13,828 nt of DNA from Candidatus Jordarchaeales archaeon (lineage in GTDB: Archaea; Asgardarchaeota; Jordiarchaeia; Jordiarchaeales; Freyrarchaeaceae): NCBI GenBank assembly GCA_038858525.1, contig JAWCFL010000025.1:1-13828 (forward strand), written 5' to 3'. Every line of letters begins with the position of its first letter. Within the stretch, counting starts at the first letter, position 1. Position numbers and translations under genes: made by a program. The notes below the pieces were generated by a model. It searched no databases and was not told the DNA's origin. It saw only the letters and a list, made by a program, of their open reading frames with translations. Positions 6,012-10,886 of the stretch are shown piece by piece.

Positions 6012-6755
6012 ATGATGGCTGCCAGAAAATATCATCTTGCCGTGGGAGTTCTGGTTTTCGTGGCGTTCGCCATAGCCTTCTACAAGTGGTACTTGGGAAC
6101 TTGGACTATAACCGAAGTGAATGGAAACATTTTCTCGACGCCACGCTCCTTCTCATCAAGGGATGTGGTTTGGTTAACTATCTCTTTCTTCCTCTCTCTA
6201 ACTGGGTCAGAGATCGCGGATTTCGACCACGCGATAACGTGGATGAACCACCGTGACTGGTTAACACACTCAGCAATAATACCTTCAATACCCGCTGTCG
6301 TAGTTCTAGCTGCAACTTTCAGTAGCACGTTCATGCAGGAAGCGCGTTTAGCCCTCTCCCTACTACTGGCAATGGTCCCCCTAGTGCTCGCAGCTGCATC
6401 CCACCTTCTAATTGACCTCTTCCCAAGCGTGCCTATCGAGGAGCTCAGCAAAAAAGGAAAGTACGTAGAACTGGCTGTACGTATGGCTGACAGCGCCATT
6501 AGAGGTATGATCTTGACAGAGTTCGGCAAGAGAATGTCTGGAAGCTACCTGATACATTTCTGGTGGAATATTAAAAAAGAAAAGGGAAAAGAAAGGCGCA
6601 CTTTAAGCGAGAAGAAAACAAAAACTTGGCTTGTGATTAACGGCGTTGTACTAATCGGAGTAGCCTTAGCTCTCCTAGCAAGATACCTTATGCTCGAACT
6701 GTCTTTTCCCATTACCCAACTAGTGTCTATCGTACTAGGCTTTATTACTGGCTGA
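6012..6755 (+). CDS. Membrane-bound metal-dependent hydrolase, YdjM-like
   Basis: Several hydrophobic segments plus the motifs ADFDH, HRDWLTHS and SHLLID; SD AGGAG. Confidence 0.65.
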   Translation: MMAARKYHLAVGVLVFVAFAIAFYKWYLGTWTITEVNGNIFSTPRSFSSRDVVWLTISFFLSLTGSEIADFDHAITWMNHRDWLTHSAIIPSIPAVVVLAATFSSTFMQEARLALSLLLAMVPLVLAAASHLLIDLFPSVPIEELSKKGKYVELAVRMADSAIRGMILTEFGKRMSGSYLIHFWWNIKKEKGKERRTLSEKKTKTWLVINGVVLIGVALALLARYLMLELSFPITQLVSIVLGFITG

Positions 6756-7692
6756 TCTTCTCTCCGCAATTGGGACAAAACTTAGCGTTGGATGGTACCG
6801 GTGAGCCACATTGAGGACAGAATCCCCCTCCACCCGCCATTTTTTGTCCACAGTTACTGCAAAACCGTGCGCCTTGAGAGTTCTGAGCCCCGCATTTCGG
6901 ACAAATAACCACGTTTTGAGGAGTCTGAGTTTGCTGGAGAAGGGGAGGCAAAATAGCTATTCCAGCACCAAAAGCCGCTCCTGAAGACTTACCGAGTGAT
7001 TCCGCCGCCCTCTCAACTGCCTCCAGCGTCCTGGCGCGTTCTCCCGTAACTCTTCCTGTCTGAAGCCAGAAAAGCCTCTCCCTGTACTCCGGCGTCGTAT
7101 CCATTCCCTCGAATTTAAGGTCGACGAGGTCCAGCCCAATTCTCCTAAATGCTTCCCTGATCTTAACCTTAACTTTCATGCTTGTCTCATCTAGTTGCGT
7201 GAAGACCTCCTGTAGTCTAAACGACGCTAGGGCATCTATCATATTCTCCAGTATAAATCCTCTCACAAACTGGTTTACCGCGTCCGTCGTGAACGAATGG
7301 GTGTTTCCAACCACTTCCATAACAAAGATCTTCGGCTCCTCAACCTTGAACCAGAATGTGCCATGAAACTTGAGAGGCGCCAGATCAACAGTTTGACCTT
7401 GCCCTCCAAACTTGCCTTGAAACTGTGATGTTGAAACGAACATTATCTCGGCGGCGAAAGCCGACTTGTCCAGCAATTGAAGACGCCTTATAACACCAGT
7501 GAGCAACGGAAGATTAGCTGTTGTTAAATGATGCCTACCTGGGCCAAATACATCATAAGCCTTACCATCTCTGAAAAATACTGCCACCTGATTCTCTCTA
7601 ACTATGAGGTTCGAGCCCCACTCGATCCTGTCATCATGGTACCTCCAAACTATTTCTTCCCGTCCGCCTTTCCACTCTATAACCTTAGGCAT
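6745..7692 (-). CDS. SPFH/Band-7 domain protein with C-terminal zinc ribbons (YdjI/COG4260-like)
   Basis: LIVRENQVAVFFRDGK, FGPGRHHLTTANLPLL and AEIMFVS N-terminus; four CxxC pairs (CPKC/CSNC/CPQC/CPNC) at the C-terminus. Confidence 0.9.
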   Translation of the reverse strand: MPKVIEWKGGREEIVWRYHDDRIEWGSNLIVRENQVAVFFRDGKAYDVFGPGRHHLTTANLPLLTGVIRRLQLLDKSAFAAEIMFVSTSQFQGKFGGQGQTVDLAPLKFHGTFWFKVEEPKIFVMEVVGNTHSFTTDAVNQFVRGFILENMIDALASFRLQEVFTQLDETSMKVKVKIREAFRRIGLDLVDLKFEGMDTTPEYRERLFWLQTGRVTGERARTLEAVERAAESLGKSSGAAFGAGIAILPPLLQQTQTPQNVVICPKCGAQNSQGARFCSNCGQKMAGGGGFCPQCGSPVPSNAKFCPNCGEKISQ

Positions 7693-7702
7693 ACTACCAC
7701 CC

Positions 7703-8298
7703 TCATCTAAACTCTAACATATACTCCTTTCTCTCATTAAACTTTTTATCAATATCATCTAGAACCCGCCTTAACCTGAACACGTCCTGATAAACATCCT
7801 TCAAATTGCCCTTCTCCATTCTCTCCTTAAGCTCAAGTATCCCTCTGCGAAACGCCTCAACATCCTCAAGTATCCCCATATCAAACTCGTAAAGCCTATC
7901 AAGCTCTTTTTCCCTAACCTTTACGGCATCAAAAAATCCAGAGTAACCATAGTCCGCATGATTTATCCTCTCAGAAACTCTGTCAAGCAACGCCATAAGC
8001 CTGTCCATCTGCTCCCAGCTTTCACGAAGATCATAGTCGACAAGCATCTCCTGGATCAAGCTCAAATCAGACTTACACTCCTTCATCCTCGTATAAATGA
8101 AACCTCTAAGAGCCTTATCCGTCTCCCTTCTAATCTCCTTAGCCTTGTATCCATGTTGGCCAGCCCGGCAAAAGCTCAGAGCTTATAGCCAGGAACAAGG
8201 TACATCAACTTTTCCAACAAGTTCCTCTTGCTCTGAAAGGAAACCTCTCTCTTAATCTTACCCCCAACATCCTCATTTTCCTTCTTCCACAAAGACAA
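7703..8298 (-). CDS. Intron-split conserved helical hypothetical protein: join(8298-8185, 8155-7703), 188 aa after splicing
   Basis: SD GGAGGTGA (8310-8303), then TTG 8298. Exon 1 is MSLWKKENEDVGGKIKREVSFQSKRNLLEKLMYLVPGY (38 codons). Exon 2 continues HGYKAKEIRRETDKALRGFIYTR into the 127-aa track ORF, which contains ADYGYSGFFD. The stop lies 10 nt before the SPFH start. Confidence 0.85.
8156..8184 (-). other. Candidate 29-nt BHB-type mRNA intron
   Basis: Sequence AAGCUCUGAGCUUUUGCCGGGCUGGCCAA. Central helix GGCU/GGCC, bulges AUA and AAC, intron helix AGCUC/GGGCU, and about 10 bp of exon-exon pairing. The cuts predicted by the BHB rule restore the frame. Confidence 0.85.
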
Positions 8299-8340
8299 AG
8301 AGTCACCTCCAAGATTGACACTAAAAATTAATGCAAAACA

Positions 8341-8362
8341 AGGATAAAAAATTTATAGTAAA
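8341..8362. promoter_or_regulatory. AT-rich BRE/TATA element between the divergent tRNA-Val and the intron-split gene
   Basis: Plus strand GATAAAAAA-TTTATAGT about 27 nt before tRNA position 1; the minus strand of the same stretch reads CTATAAATT. Confidence 0.55.
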
Positions 8363-8385: not shown

Positions 8386-8477
8386 GGGCGGGTAGTCTAG
8401 CGGTCATGACGCCACACCAAAACTGGGCGACGCTTACGACGTGGAGGACCCAGGTTCAAATCCTGGCCCGCCCACCA
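8386..8477 (+). tRNA. tRNA-Val(UAC) with encoded CCA and a 16-nt non-canonical intron
   Basis: Acceptor GGGCGGG/CCCGCCC-A-CCA; D arm GTCT...TGAC; T arm CCAGG-TTCAAAT-CCTGG. Removing 16 nt gives anticodon arm CCACG-CTTACGA-CGTGG with anticodon TAC. Confidence 0.95.
8416..8431 (+). other. tRNA intron at position 30/31 with a relaxed BHB motif
   Basis: Intron ACCAAAACTGGGCGAC. Central helix CGCC (8410-8413)/GGCG (8426-8429), bulges ACA and ACG. The flanking helices are weak. Confidence 0.85.
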
Positions 8478-8933: not shown

Positions 8934-9668
8934 TCACGCTTCACTGAATAATTTCTTTAACCTCTCTAACTCAGCGAGCATAGCACTTCTTAACTCAGTG
9001 ATCGATGACGTTTCAGAGGAAAATGCAACTCCAGGAGCAGATGCGGAAACTGCCGCCGCTGGCGGTGCTGCTGGCAGTGCCCTTGCCGCTGGAGGTGCTG
9101 CTGGAGGTGCTGCTGGAGGTGCTGCTGGAGGCGCTGCTGGGGGTGCCCTTGCCGCTGGAGGTGCTGCTGGAGGTGCTGCTGGAGGTGCTGCTGGAGGCGC
9201 TGCTGGAGGCGCTGCTGGAGGCGCTGCTGGGGGTGCCCTTGCCGCTGGAGGCGCTGCTGGAGGCGCCGCTGGAGGCGCCGCTGGGGGTGCCCTTGCCGCT
9301 GGAGGCGCCGCTGGGGGTGCCCTTGCCGCTGGAGGCGCCGCTGGAGGCGCTGTTGGAGGCGCCCTTGCCTCTATTGATAATGGCGTTTCAGTTCGGGATG
9401 CGCCTATGAATACATCGAATACCTCTTCTGGCTCTTTTTGGGCGAGTGCTTCTATTTCTGGTGCTGATATTACTATTTCTTCTTCCTCTATTAGTGGTAC
9501 TTCAGCGCTTTTAGCTAGTTTTTCTACTTCTTTTTGTATCTTCTTAATTGAAGTGATGTATGAGTCGTGTATTTTCTGGAAATTGGCGAAGTACTTCTCC
9601 GATGTGCTTACAAGTGATTTGCACAGGTTTAGTACGGCTTTAAGGACTTTTTCTTCTTTTTTAGGCAA
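8934..9668 (-). CDS. Hypothetical protein: helical N-terminus, acidic linker, long (APPA)n Pro/Ala tract, C-terminal amphipathic helix ending LKKLF
   Basis: TTG start with SD GAGGGG. Non-repetitive ends read as real protein, with C-terminus ITELRSAMLAELERLKKLFSEA. Confidence 0.8.
   Translation of the reverse strand: MPKKEEKVLKAVLNLCKSLVSTSEKYFANFQKIHDSYITSIKKIQKEVEKLAKSAEVPLIEEEEIVISAPEIEALAQKEPEEVFDVFIGASRTETPLSIEARAPPTAPPAAPPAARAPPAAPPAARAPPAAPPAAPPAAPPAARAPPAAPPAAPPAAPPAAPPAAPPAAPPAARAPPAAPPAAPPAAPPAAPPAARALPAAPPAAAVSASAPGVAFSSETSSITELRSAMLAELERLKKLFSEA
9052..9369 (-). repeat. Intragenic GC-rich tandem repeat: 12-nt units (PPAA) interspersed with 18-nt units (PPAARA)
   Basis: About 22 PP doublets; exact 60-nt duplication 9081-9140 = 9147-9206. 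Confidence 0.95.
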
Positions 9669-9917
9669 AGTCGTCCCCTCAACCTACTCCTTATTTTTTA
9701 ACTTTTACTTAAAGGTTGCTTTTCAACGTGTTATTCAGATATTTTTAATGTTGTTTTTTATATATGAACTTTATCGCAAATTTTTTTGTTCACTTAACTG
9801 CAAGGTGCCTTTTGCTCCCTTTTATGTATGTTTTACATGTCCTCCCTTACTTATTTCGTTCTTGTTAGTATCTGCGATAGATGGTTCATTAGCAGTTACC
9901 GTGTTTTTTGTGGAGCG

Positions 9918-10886
9918 TTAAGTGCTGAGCATTATTACTAGTATAGCCATGTACGAGGCGTGGGCGGCTATTGTTGTTATTATCCTGTATTCTCTTGCTT
10001 GGAGTAATGCTCCTAATATTAGGGATAATATAATGTACGTAGGGAGAGCTAGCAGTACGCTTATTAATCCTACCTCTGGCAAACCTATGGTAGATGCGTT
10101 CTGCGGGTATAGGATCACGTGGAGTATAGAGAATATTATTGCTGTCGCTACTAATCCCTTCCACCGTCCCCAGCTTTTTTCTAGTCCCTGCTGTAGGAAT
10201 CCTCTCGTGGCTATTTCTTCGCATGGTGCTACTAGTAGCGTAACTGAAGCTATGAGGAGAAAGAGCTGAGCAGGGTTGGTTGCTCCGAAGGGAGCGTTTA
10301 TCTCTGATATGAATTCCTCAGCGAGAAGGATGAGTAGTGGGCCCAGAAGCGGGCCGTAGAATGCTTGAAGCACGGCTAGCAGAGCTAGGGTAGTAACGAT
10401 ACTTGTTATGTTAGCTGTCACCATCATACCTATTCCCGCTAGGCATCCGATTATCACATCCATTACTGTGTTTCTCTTATTCGTAGATGGGAATCCTAGT
10501 TCTCTAAGAGAGGCCTTCTTCAGTTTGAGGATGAGCACTGGAATTATCAAGAGTGCTAGCTCCCCTAGTGTTACGAATGATAATATTTCGGGCGTCACTA
10601 TTACCAACACTAATTCGAATTTGTATGTCATAGTGAATATGTCAAAGGTGGATTGTAGCCTCAAAAGGGAGAGAGGGCTTATAGCTAGCATTAACGCAAG
10701 TCCTAAGAGGTACATTACACTCTGAAAAAGGAAAAGAAGGATTATTGATGCCGTGAAGCCTACAGTTGCCTCAATCCACCCCCAAGAAACCCTAGCGCCA
10801 TCCATTCTGCTACCACAATACGCGCACCTTTTTCCTTTGTCTTCGGGCTGTTCAGCCCCACACGTCGGGCAAAATCGTCTCTCCAT
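9918..10886 (-). CDS. CPBP (Abi/CAAX protease) family intramembrane protease with an N-terminal zinc ribbon
   Basis: CPTC...CAYC at the N-terminus, multiple TM segments, and CPBP motifs CEEIATRG, IFSILH and AAHASYM. Confidence 0.85.
   Translation of the reverse strand: MERRFCPTCGAEQPEDKGKRCAYCGSRMDGARVSWGWIEATVGFTASIILLFLFQSVMYLLGLALMLAISPLSLLRLQSTFDIFTMTYKFELVLVIVTPEILSFVTLGELALLIIPVLILKLKKASLRELGFPSTNKRNTVMDVIIGCLAGIGMMVTANITSIVTTLALLAVLQAFYGPLLGPLLILLAEEFISEINAPFGATNPAQLFLLIASVTLLVAPCEEIATRGFLQQGLEKSWGRWKGLVATAIIFSILHVILYPQNASTIGLPEVGLISVLLALPTYIILSLILGALLQAREYRIITTIAAHASYMAILVIMLST

What the first reader, a model, noticed from the sequence alone, without database searches (positions are those of the whole stretch)
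7703..8298. Splicing may gate expression of a two-gene SPFH membrane-scaffold operon
The intron-split gene is first in an apparent operon, and the SPFH-zinc ribbon gene starts 10 nt after its stop. The intron sits in phase 0, 38 codons in, inside a PG(F/Y)xGYxxxExRRExD motif that I recall as the conserved core of a family often found next to SPFH genes (recollection, not a search). Unspliced mRNA would give a 40-aa peptide and leave about 480 nt without its full-length ORF being translated. Inference: EndA/ligase activity could control this protein and, by polarity, SPFH, linking tRNA-processing capacity to a membrane-stress module.
Basis: partly seen in the sequence, partly recalled or inferred. 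Interest (0 to 1): 0.7.

Follow-up and report, generated by a model that had tools for sequence, protein, structure and literature searches.

The report
Spliced tRNA-type intron heading SPFH operon
A 29-base intron of the kind archaea cut out of tRNAs splits the first gene of a conserved two-gene membrane-scaffold (SPFH) operon in an Asgard archaeon, and an environmental RNA data set holds the message without it; but it is one of several such introns in this genome, and nothing shows that it works as a regulatory gate.

Summary
Observation confirmed. On the minus strand, exon 1 (8298-8185, 38 codons), a 29-nt insert (8184-8156) and exon 2 (8155-7703) encode a 188-aa all-helical protein. A Band_7_1 SPFH/double zinc-ribbon gene (7692-6745) follows 10 nt later.

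- **Structure:** the insert folds as a bulge-helix-bulge motif: a 4-bp helix between two 3-nt bulges.
- **Junction:** cutting after the second bulge base gives ...PGY|HGYK..., exactly the sequence of intronless homologues.
- **Relatives:** six of the ten genomes of the class that carry the gene, plus further metagenome contigs, have an intron of 27-31 nt at the same site, with compensatory pair changes. One tight clade lost it precisely.
- **RNA:** a metatranscriptome contig lacks exactly 8156-8184, while DNA contigs keep those bases.
- **Enzymes:** two EndA genes, RtcB and FttA are present.

The regulatory reading is only partly supported. Splicing is obligatory for protein 1, but no evidence shows it is rate-limiting or condition-dependent. 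I checked a second mRNA intron in this genome (ppsA) and a probable third (rpl44e). Earlier notes of this scan list many more on other DNA of the same genome. The SPFH gene has its own ribosome-binding site in every relative. The only RNA contig over the site is the spliced form. The operon persists unchanged without the intron.

Best reading: a constitutively spliced mRNA intron, a new member of the cbf5 kind.

The parts
8351..8358 (-). AT-rich TATA-like element (CTATAAAT) 53-60 nt upstream of the start codon; inferred promoter of the operon
   Evidence: Read from the sequence. The same stretch with its T-rich tail recurs upstream of the homologous gene in L007. Inferred, not tested.
8303..8310 (-). 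Shine-Dalgarno-like GGAGGTGA before the TTG start of gene 1
   Evidence: Sequence. A TTG start at 8298 gives a 38-codon exon 1, the same length as the N-terminus of the intact homologue P0007.
8185..8298 (-). Exon 1 of the helical-protein gene: 38 codons, ending ...L V P G Y
   Evidence: Annotated as a separate 40-aa gene in public assemblies of the same species.
8156..8184 (-). 29-nt BHB intron; it contains the in-frame TGA (8178-8176) that ends the unspliced reading
   Evidence: Absent from intact homologues. Exactly these 29 bases are left out of an RNA-library contig but kept in a DNA contig.
8143..8200 (-). Whole bulge-helix-bulge motif. Outer exon-exon helix; 3' bulge AA|C; 4-bp helix GGCU/GGCC; 5' bulge AU|A; 5-bp intron helix AGCUC/GGGCU
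   Evidence: MFE fold. Pair-by-pair table for 7 distinct versions shows all four central pairs kept and compensatory changes in the inner helix.
7703..8155 (-). Exon 2: 150 codons plus TGA, starting H G Y K A K E I R R E. The spliced product is 188 aa
   Evidence: The structure model of homologue P0007 is an all-alpha bundle (pLDDT 81).
7697..7702 (-). Shine-Dalgarno-like GGGTGG within the 10-nt spacer before the SPFH start codon
   Evidence: Sequence. An SD-like purine run lies in the 8-24-nt spacer of all ten genomes of the class.
6745..7692 (-). Gene 2: Band_7_1 SPFH domain plus C-terminal double zinc ribbon, 315 aa
   Evidence: Pfam PF13421 E 2.8e-29 and PF12773 E 5.8e-13. Synteny is conserved in archaea and bacteria.

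Best explanation
The 29 bases at 8184-8156 (minus strand) are a genuine archaeal bulge-helix-bulge intron in a protein-coding mRNA.

Proposed mechanism:
1. The operon is transcribed from the AT-rich promoter region near 8355 as one RNA carrying gene 1 (split) and the SPFH/zinc-ribbon gene.
2. The splicing endonuclease cuts after the second base of each 3-nt bulge. This genome has two EndA-domain genes, which suggests the two-subunit form (not established here).
3. RtcB joins the exons.
4. The joined message encodes a 188-aa helical-bundle protein that works with the SPFH protein.

Splicing is obligatory for protein 1. It is most likely constitutive housekeeping processing: this is one of several such introns in this lineage, inherited from the common ancestor of the order and lost once. 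It is probably not a dedicated regulatory gate. SPFH translation starts from its own ribosome-binding site.

Shown: intron anatomy, homology junction, conservation with covariation, the spliced form in an RNA library, and presence of the enzymes.
Inferred: which enzymes act, co-transcription, constitutive splicing, and the functional partnership of the two proteins.
For: - Junction: it equals intact homologues with no gap.
- Relatives: the same site is occupied in 6 of 10 class genomes that carry the gene, plus L005 and L007. Intron lengths are 27, 28, 28, 29, 30, 31 and 31 nt, in two divergent sequence types.
- Structure: the central 4-bp helix is paired in all 7 versions. The inner helix is kept through A-U/G-C and G-C/A-U swaps.
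- Codon link: every intron allele has the Pro codon CCT, whose U pairs in the outer helix; every intronless allele has CCC. The intronless alleles form a single clade, so this contrast rests on one event.
- RNA: X13 contig record 10 (414 nt, depth 15) lacks exactly 8156-8184. DNA run X1 (depth 89) keeps those bases. Five same-species DNA contigs at 99.8% identity also keep them.
- Enzymes: two EndA genes and one RtcB gene are present.
- Other mRNA introns here: in ppsA, the Pfam PPDK_N profile runs 2-113 and then 115-317 across a 20-nt BHB insert. rpl44e has an in-frame TAG within about 30 extra bases.
- SPFH translation: the gene has an SD-like site of its own in all relatives.
- Dispensability: the intronless clade keeps the operon.
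Against: - The RNA contig comes from a strain about 1.4% different from the window (6 substitutions in 414 nt). No DNA from that sample was laid, so an intronless allele or DNA carry-over is not formally excluded.
- Contigs cannot give spliced/unspliced ratios, so 'constitutive' is an inference.
- Retention of the intron across an order-level divergence could reflect selection for a function.
- An unspliced message would leave 473 nt untranslated, and FttA is present, so a polar effect is mechanistically possible.
- The fold's free energy is not exceptional (z = -1.44).
Confidence: 0.72

Rival explanations
1. One reading: splicing is a regulatory gate. When EndA/RtcB capacity is limiting, ribosomes stop at codon 40. 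The 473 untranslated bases then let FttA terminate transcription, so both the helical protein and SPFH fall. This would couple tRNA-processing capacity to a membrane module.
For: - The premature stop lies in or just after the intron in all 7 versions.
- The spacer between the genes is only 8-24 nt in all relatives.
- An FttA orthologue is present at 969 bits, over the cut-off.
- Polarity is described in archaea (PMC12548453, citing Santangelo 2008 and Sanders 2020).
- The cbf5 intron was earlier proposed as a negative regulator (PMC2738675).
- The intron has been retained across the order.
Against: - No data show variable splicing.
- The only RNA contig over the site is spliced.
- The same intron type sits in ppsA and probably rpl44e in this genome, so there is no specific link to this operon.
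- SPFH has its own SD-like site.
- One clade lost the intron with the operon otherwise unchanged.
- A congener lacks both genes with these queries.
Confidence: 0.1
2. The gene is broken: the 29 bases are a frameshifting insertion in a pseudogene, or an assembly error, and no full-length protein is made.
For: Gene callers split it into a 40-aa and a 127-aa ORF in every public assembly of the species.
Against: - The insert sits at one site in relatives down to 62% protein identity, and both exons stay open and conserved.
- It keeps a BHB with compensatory changes.
- It is identical in six independent DNA assemblies.
- It is missing from an RNA contig.
Confidence: 0.02
3. Programmed -1 ribosomal frameshifting near codon 39-40 reads through the insert. 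This would give a protein with about 10 extra residues (K-A-L-S-F-C-R-A-G-Q) between PGY and HGYK.
For: The exon 2 frame is open from 8182, so it overlaps the end of the exon 1 frame.
Against: - There is no slippery heptamer at 8184-8176.
- Insert lengths of 27-31 nt need different shifts in different relatives, and the 27- and 30-nt versions carry in-frame stops.
- No homologue has extra residues at this point.
- An RNA without the 29 bases exists.
Confidence: 0.01

Closest known systems
BHB intron of the cbf5 pre-mRNA in Crenarchaeota (Desulfurococcales, Sulfolobales; Watanabe 2002, Yokobori 2009 = PMC2738675; review PMC10485636)
   Same: - A short intron inside a coding sequence.
- A BHB-type fold at the exon-intron junctions.
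- Presumed cleavage by the tRNA splicing endonuclease and ligation.
- Lineage-specific gain and precise loss.
- Hosts with two EndA-type genes.
- A regulatory role has been proposed but never shown.
   Different: - A different gene (an uncharacterised helical partner of an SPFH protein) and a different phylum (Asgard, Jordarchaeia/Freyarchaeia-like).
- The motif here is close to the strict 3-4-3 form, whereas the review describes cbf5 as relaxed.
- The gene heads a two-gene operon.
- The genome holds other such introns, whereas cbf5 is a lone case in its hosts.
HVO_1309 mRNA of Haloferax volcanii, cut by the splicing endonuclease (PMC7714728; discussed in PMC10485636)
   Same: An archaeal mRNA carrying a BHB that the tRNA endonuclease processes; the spliced form dominates in RNA-seq.
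   Different: That gene is unrelated to this one.
Non-canonical tRNA introns of Asgard archaea and Thermoproteales (bioRxiv 10.64898/2026.10.13.758758; PMC5829648)
   Same: Same size class and same BHB geometry. The neighbouring tRNA-Val (8386-8474) carries a 16-nt intron at 30/31 with a CGCC/GGCG central helix.
   Different: The host RNA here is a translated message, so splicing competes with ribosomes and decides the reading frame. That preprint does not mention mRNA introns.
Bacillus subtilis YdjI (Band 7 protein of the pspA-ydjGHI operon; bioRxiv 10.1101/2021.02.15.431232)
   Same: A cytoplasmic Band 7/SPFH protein encoded in an operon with a helical partner, and tied to membrane-stress functions.
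   Different: The partner here is not PspA: it has no Pfam hit and no structural match to solved structures. The zinc ribbons are fused to the SPFH protein rather than carried on a separate YdjG. I did not scan YdjI itself; Band_7_1 membership of YdjI is my own recollection.

Membership tests
Archaeal BHB intron spliced by EndA/RtcB (cbf5 kind) | Central 4-bp helix flanked by two 3-nt bulges on opposite strands | tested here: met
   GGCU/GGCC with bulges AU|A and AA|C. The MFE fold draws a 5-bp helix with a 4-nt 3' bulge, an equivalent register. All four pairs are standard in 7 versions.
Archaeal BHB intron spliced by EndA/RtcB (cbf5 kind) | Flanking helices: an outer exon-exon helix and an inner intron helix | tested here: met
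   The inner helix is 4-7 bp in six of the 7 distinct versions; in L033 its first pair is a U-U mismatch, followed by 4 pairs. It shows compensatory swaps. The outer helix is present but interrupted by single-base bulges, and it is weaker in the sister genus.
Archaeal BHB intron spliced by EndA/RtcB (cbf5 kind) | Cuts after the second bulge base restore the conserved reading frame and protein sequence | tested here: met
   The TAT|CAT junction gives PGY-HGYK, identical in register to intronless P0007/P0008 and L001, L035-L038. The cut rule itself is from my own knowledge. It is consistent with the tRNA-Val intron in the window but not proven by it.
Archaeal BHB intron spliced by EndA/RtcB (cbf5 kind) | The intron is removed from the RNA | tested here: met
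   An RNA-library contig lacks exactly 8156-8184, while the DNA contig keeps them. Caveat: the strain differs by about 1.4%, and the evidence is contigs rather than raw reads.
Archaeal BHB intron spliced by EndA/RtcB (cbf5 kind) | The host encodes the splicing endonuclease and RtcB ligase | tested here: met
   Two PF01974 genes (110.7 and 80.6 bits) and one PF01139 gene (601.5 bits).
Archaeal BHB intron spliced by EndA/RtcB (cbf5 kind) | Cleavage by purified EndA at the predicted sites | not testable with these tools
   Needs an in vitro assay.
Regulatory (gating) intron controlling an operon | Spliced/unspliced ratio changes with condition or with EndA/RtcB level | not testable with these tools
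Regulatory (gating) intron controlling an operon | The intron is kept wherever the operon is kept | tested here: not met
   L001 and L035-L038 have the operon without the intron. These belong to one tight clade (SPFH 98-99% identical), so this is one loss event.
Regulatory (gating) intron controlling an operon | The downstream gene depends on upstream translation: no own ribosome-binding site or promoter | tested here: inconclusive
   An SD-like site precedes SPFH in all relatives, so translation need not be coupled. Transcriptional polarity through FttA (present) cannot be judged from sequence. I saw no conserved internal TATA-like element, but no archaeal promoter tool was available.
NCBIfam NF047596 (LIMLP_15305 family) | Score at or above the curated cut-off (210 bits) | tested here: not met
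   P0007 48.3, P0074 50.4 and P0040 60.1 bits. This is a distant relative, not a member.
Pfam PF13421 Band_7_1 SPFH (gene 2) | Score above the gathering threshold over the full domain | tested here: met
   102.7 bits against a cut-off of 24, profile positions 1-198 of 211.

The most novel reading that the evidence does not exclude
The intron is a kinetic gate. Exon 1 is only 114 nt, so the first ribosome reaches the BHB almost as soon as it is made. The share of transcripts spliced before translation would then set the yield of the helical protein. Through FttA-dependent polarity on the 473 untranslated bases, it would also set the yield of its SPFH partner. Output of a membrane-scaffold module would thus track EndA/RtcB capacity in an Asgard archaeon.
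Probability: 0.08. Interest if true: 0.8.

Novelty: new member of a known kind. Interest (0 to 1): 0.45.

Why it matters
In the papers I could search, endonuclease-type splicing inside an archaeal coding sequence is described only for cbf5, plus one Haloferax mRNA. This case has three kinds of support: comparative data, RNA structure, and an RNA-derived sequence. It lies in an Asgard lineage, the closest prokaryotic relatives of eukaryotes, and it sits at the head of an operon.

It adds to evidence from this scan that mRNA splicing by the tRNA machinery is routine in this lineage. That raises a real question: how is splicing ordered relative to coupled translation?

There is also a practical point. 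Public annotations split this gene into 40-aa and 97-131-aa fragments, so the family is mis-annotated in these genomes. The specific gating idea is a testable hypothesis and has not been shown.

Tried and rejected
- **Complex prediction** of the helical protein with its SPFH neighbour gave no verdict (score 0.01). This is evidence neither for nor against binding.
- **Fold and sequence searches.** Foldseek against the PDB and a profile search of solved structures returned only generic helical bundles, designed proteins and IncA at E > 0.01. No fold assignment follows. Pfam found nothing for either exon. The Atlas feature search found only unnamed clusters.
- **My genome-wide BHB scan** was too permissive: 26,148 raw hits, 556 after ORF filters, many of them intergenic spacers.
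  - Of five candidates sent to Pfam, only ppsA was a true split domain.
  - Two were adjacent genes: purS/purQ, and a pair of radical-SAM/CofH-type genes.
  - Two were uninformative.
  - The scan therefore gives a chance rate, not a census.
- **Aconitase_C (leuD) search.** A Pfam search of the genome for Aconitase_C showed no stops inside the matched part. It neither confirms nor contradicts the scan's note on leuD.
- **RNA runs X23 and X24** gave no usable cover of the locus. The X23 pieces are short and 90-95% alike, with unlike flanks, so they probably come from other organisms.
- **The X13 contig over the tRNA** (record 11) has unlike flanks and belongs to another locus or organism. I drew nothing from it.
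- **ARAGORN's call** of tRNA-Phe(AAA) for 8386-8477 is rejected. The Rfam alignment and the sequence fit tRNA-Val(UAC) with a 16-nt intron.
- **Pseudogene and frameshifting readings** are rejected (see rivals).

Full report
**What is there**

The finding's coordinates (7703-8298) hold a minus-strand gene in two pieces.
- Exon 1 starts at TTG 8298, seven bases (four unpaired) after GGAGGTGA, and runs 38 codons to ...CCT GGC TAT at 8185.
- Read on without splicing, the frame gives K, L and then TGA at 8178-8176, which is a 40-aa product.
- The second frame, shifted by -1, is open from 8182 and runs to TGA 7705-7703.
- Removing the 29 bases 8184-8156 joins TAT to CAT and gives a 188-aa protein.
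- Ten bases after the stop, ATG 7692 opens a 315-aa gene. It is a Band_7_1 SPFH domain (PF13421, E 2.8e-29) with a C-terminal double zinc ribbon (PF12773, E 5.8e-13).

**Is the insert an intron?**

*Homology.* A search with exon 2 found 131 relatives in archaea and bacteria, none with a Pfam domain.
In 61 sequences the residues P, G, Y, E, R, R and D of PG-x-x-GY-x-x-x-E-x-RRE-x-D are invariant, as is a YGYSGFFD block.
- The two nearest intact proteins (P0007 and P0008, Freyarchaeota, 188 aa, 66-68% identical) read ...YLVPGYHGYKAKEIRRE.... This is exon 1 joined directly to exon 2, with no gap and no extra residue.

*Structure.*
- The RNA folds with an outer exon-exon helix, a central helix GGCU/GGCC, a 5' bulge AUA, a 3' bulge on the other strand, and a 5-bp intron helix AGCUC/GGGCU.
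- In the 3-4-3 register the bulges are AU|A and AA|C.
- Cutting after the second bulge base gives exactly the junction that homology demands. That cut rule is from my own knowledge; it is consistent with the tRNA-Val intron beside this gene but not uniquely fixed by it.
- The free energy alone is not unusual (z = -1.44).
- My deliberately relaxed BHB filter fires on about 1 in 10,000 position-length pairs of this genome (26,148 hits). Its fitting the single pair dictated by homology is therefore not a chance event.

*Comparison.* The window's class holds 11 species genomes, and 10 have the gene.
- Six carry an insert at the identical codon boundary, with lengths 27, 28, 28, 29, 31 and 31 nt. 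Metagenome contigs add a 30-nt version.
- There are two sequence types: the window's family, and the sister genus with a GAGCRG/CUGCUC inner helix.
- All seven distinct versions keep four standard pairs in the central helix. All keep an inner helix through double changes: A-U to G-C at its first pair, G-C to A-U at its second.
- Five loci have no insert at all and read CCC GGC TAT CAT (four species genomes of the sister genus plus contig L001). Their SPFH proteins are 98-99% identical to each other, so this is one precise loss in one shallow clade.
- Every intron-bearing allele uses the proline codon CCT, whose U pairs with the A of CAY in the outer helix. Every intronless allele uses CCC. Because the intronless alleles form one clade, this contrast rests on one event.

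*RNA.* One metatranscriptome (X13, sediment) holds 62% of the locus's sampled words.
- Its contig record 10 (414 nt, depth 15) covers 7843-8285 with six substitutions, and exactly 29 bases are left out at 8156, that is 8156-8184.
- The DNA run X1 (depth 89) has them.
- The junction cannot slide, because the bases flanking the two cut sites differ.
- Five DNA contigs of the same species, 99.8% identical to the window, also keep the intron.
- Caveats: this evidence is contigs, not reads, and the X13 strain differs by about 1.4% with no DNA from that sample laid. However, relatives from 62% to 100% protein identity all carry the intron, apart from the one distant clade. An intronless allele at 98.6% identity is therefore unlikely.

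*Enzymes.* The genome has two EndA-domain genes with 193- and 198-aa open frames, which suggests the two-subunit enzyme (not established here). It also has one RtcB gene.

I put the intron itself at about 0.9.

**The operon**
- The gene pair is conserved. The SPFH/zinc-ribbon gene follows after 8-24 nt in all ten genomes of the class. It follows after 1 nt in a Chloroflexi genome. In another bacterial-type locus it lies two genes further on.
- X13 contig record 9 (1512 nt) runs unbroken from the last 80 bases of gene 1 through the whole SPFH gene. This agrees with co-transcription but does not prove a single transcript.
- The helical protein models as an all-alpha bundle (pLDDT 81). It has no convincing solved relative, and only a distant, sub-threshold match to NCBIfam NF047596.
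- Its role as a partner of the SPFH protein is inferred from linkage only. A complex prediction gave no verdict.

**Does splicing gate the operon?**

The premises are sound.
- Protein 1 cannot be made without splicing.
- An unspliced message leaves 473 bases untranslated.
- Polarity exists in archaea and is attributed to FttA (PMC12548453), and an FttA orthologue is present (969 bits).
- The cbf5 intron was once proposed as a negative regulator (PMC2738675).

Nothing supports regulation, and four observations lean against a dedicated gate.
1. The intron type is not special to this operon.
   - I confirmed a 20-nt BHB insert that splits the PPDK_N domain of ppsA at profile positions 113/115.
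   - I found an in-frame TAG inside about 30 extra bases in the only rpl44e gene.
   - Earlier notes of this scan list many more in this genome, including dnaG, aIF5B, queE and leuD. Apart from a leuD check that settled nothing, I did not test these.
   - A dependency shared with housekeeping genes is a property of the lineage, not a link between tRNA processing and membrane stress.
2. The SPFH gene has its own Shine-Dalgarno-like site in every relative.
3. The only RNA-derived contig over the site is the spliced one. Assemblers keep the major form.
4. One clade removed the intron and left the operon as it was. In addition, one congener (95% complete) shows neither gene with these queries.

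None of this excludes a kinetic effect of splicing on yield. I give the gating reading about 0.1.

**Comparison with what is known**
- In the library I could search, endonuclease-type splicing of archaeal mRNAs is reported for cbf5 in Crenarchaeota and for HVO_1309 in Haloferax. The review adds that more probably remain to be found (PMC10485636, PMC7714728, PMC2738675).
- A 2026 preprint on Asgard tRNA introns does not mention mRNA introns. Two further searches found no report of them in Asgard archaea.
- This case meets every sequence-level criterion of the cbf5 kind, plus RNA evidence. It differs in gene, phylum, operon position and genomic company.
- It is a new member of a known kind. The scan has already found the same kind elsewhere in this genome and in other Asgard genomes, and a separate note covers this very intron.

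**Verdict**

Interest is moderate. The intron is well supported, and sitting at the head of an operon makes it a good test case for how splicing and translation are ordered. The specific claim of this finding remains a hypothesis.

Noticed in passing
window 8386-8474 (+): This is tRNA-Val(UAC) with a 16-nt intron in the 5' strand of the anticodon stem (30/31) and a CGCC/GGCG central helix. ARAGORN miscalls it Phe(AAA). It diverges head-to-head from the intron-bearing operon across an 87-bp spacer.
   Followed up: partly
G000 whole genome: Only 5 of 106 tRNA candidates reach E <= 0.001 with the Rfam tRNA model. This fits heavily interrupted tRNA genes in this lineage.
   Followed up: no
G000:C1:42657-42676 (+), locus L016 558-577: A 20-nt BHB insert splits ppsA. 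Pfam PPDK_N covers profile 2-113 up to the last residue of the upstream piece, and 115-317 from residue 2 of the downstream piece.
   Followed up: yes
G000:C1:178117-178368 (+), locus L022 about 1615-1650: The only Ribosomal_L44 (eL42) gene has an in-frame TAG inside about 30 extra bases that form a hairpin between ...GSQPK and PVQREFAKTTKK. The exact cut sites are ambiguous because TAAG is repeated at both borders.
   Followed up: partly
G000:C12:43259-44596 (+): A beta-CASP/aCPSF-like paralogue matches TIGR03675 over positions 151-629 with one TGA and one TAG inside. It may hold two more mRNA introns.
   Followed up: no
protein P0113 (Jordarchaeales MAG, 167 aa): This is a chimeric gene call. 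The last roughly 42 residues are 98% identical to the C-terminus of this helical protein, but the N-terminal 120 residues are unrelated and start with a hydrophobic helix. It is either a rearrangement or a misassembly.
   Followed up: no
window 8934-9668 (-) / 8998-9921 (+), GC-rich repeats 9030-9370: A GC-rich tandem repeat (63% GC in a 45% GC window) has long open frames on both strands. The minus-strand frame would be a Pro/Ala-rich low-complexity protein, with no Pfam match over the cut-off.
   Followed up: no
G003 (same genus, about 95% complete, 8 contigs): Neither the helical protein nor the SPFH/zinc-ribbon protein was found with the window's proteins as queries. The operon may be dispensable within the genus.
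   Followed up: partly
window 8191-8193 and homologous codon in L001, L003, L005, L007, L032-L040: The proline codon before the central helix is CCT in all intron-bearing alleles and CCC in all intronless alleles. This fits its U being part of the outer BHB helix, although the intronless alleles form one clade.
   Followed up: partly
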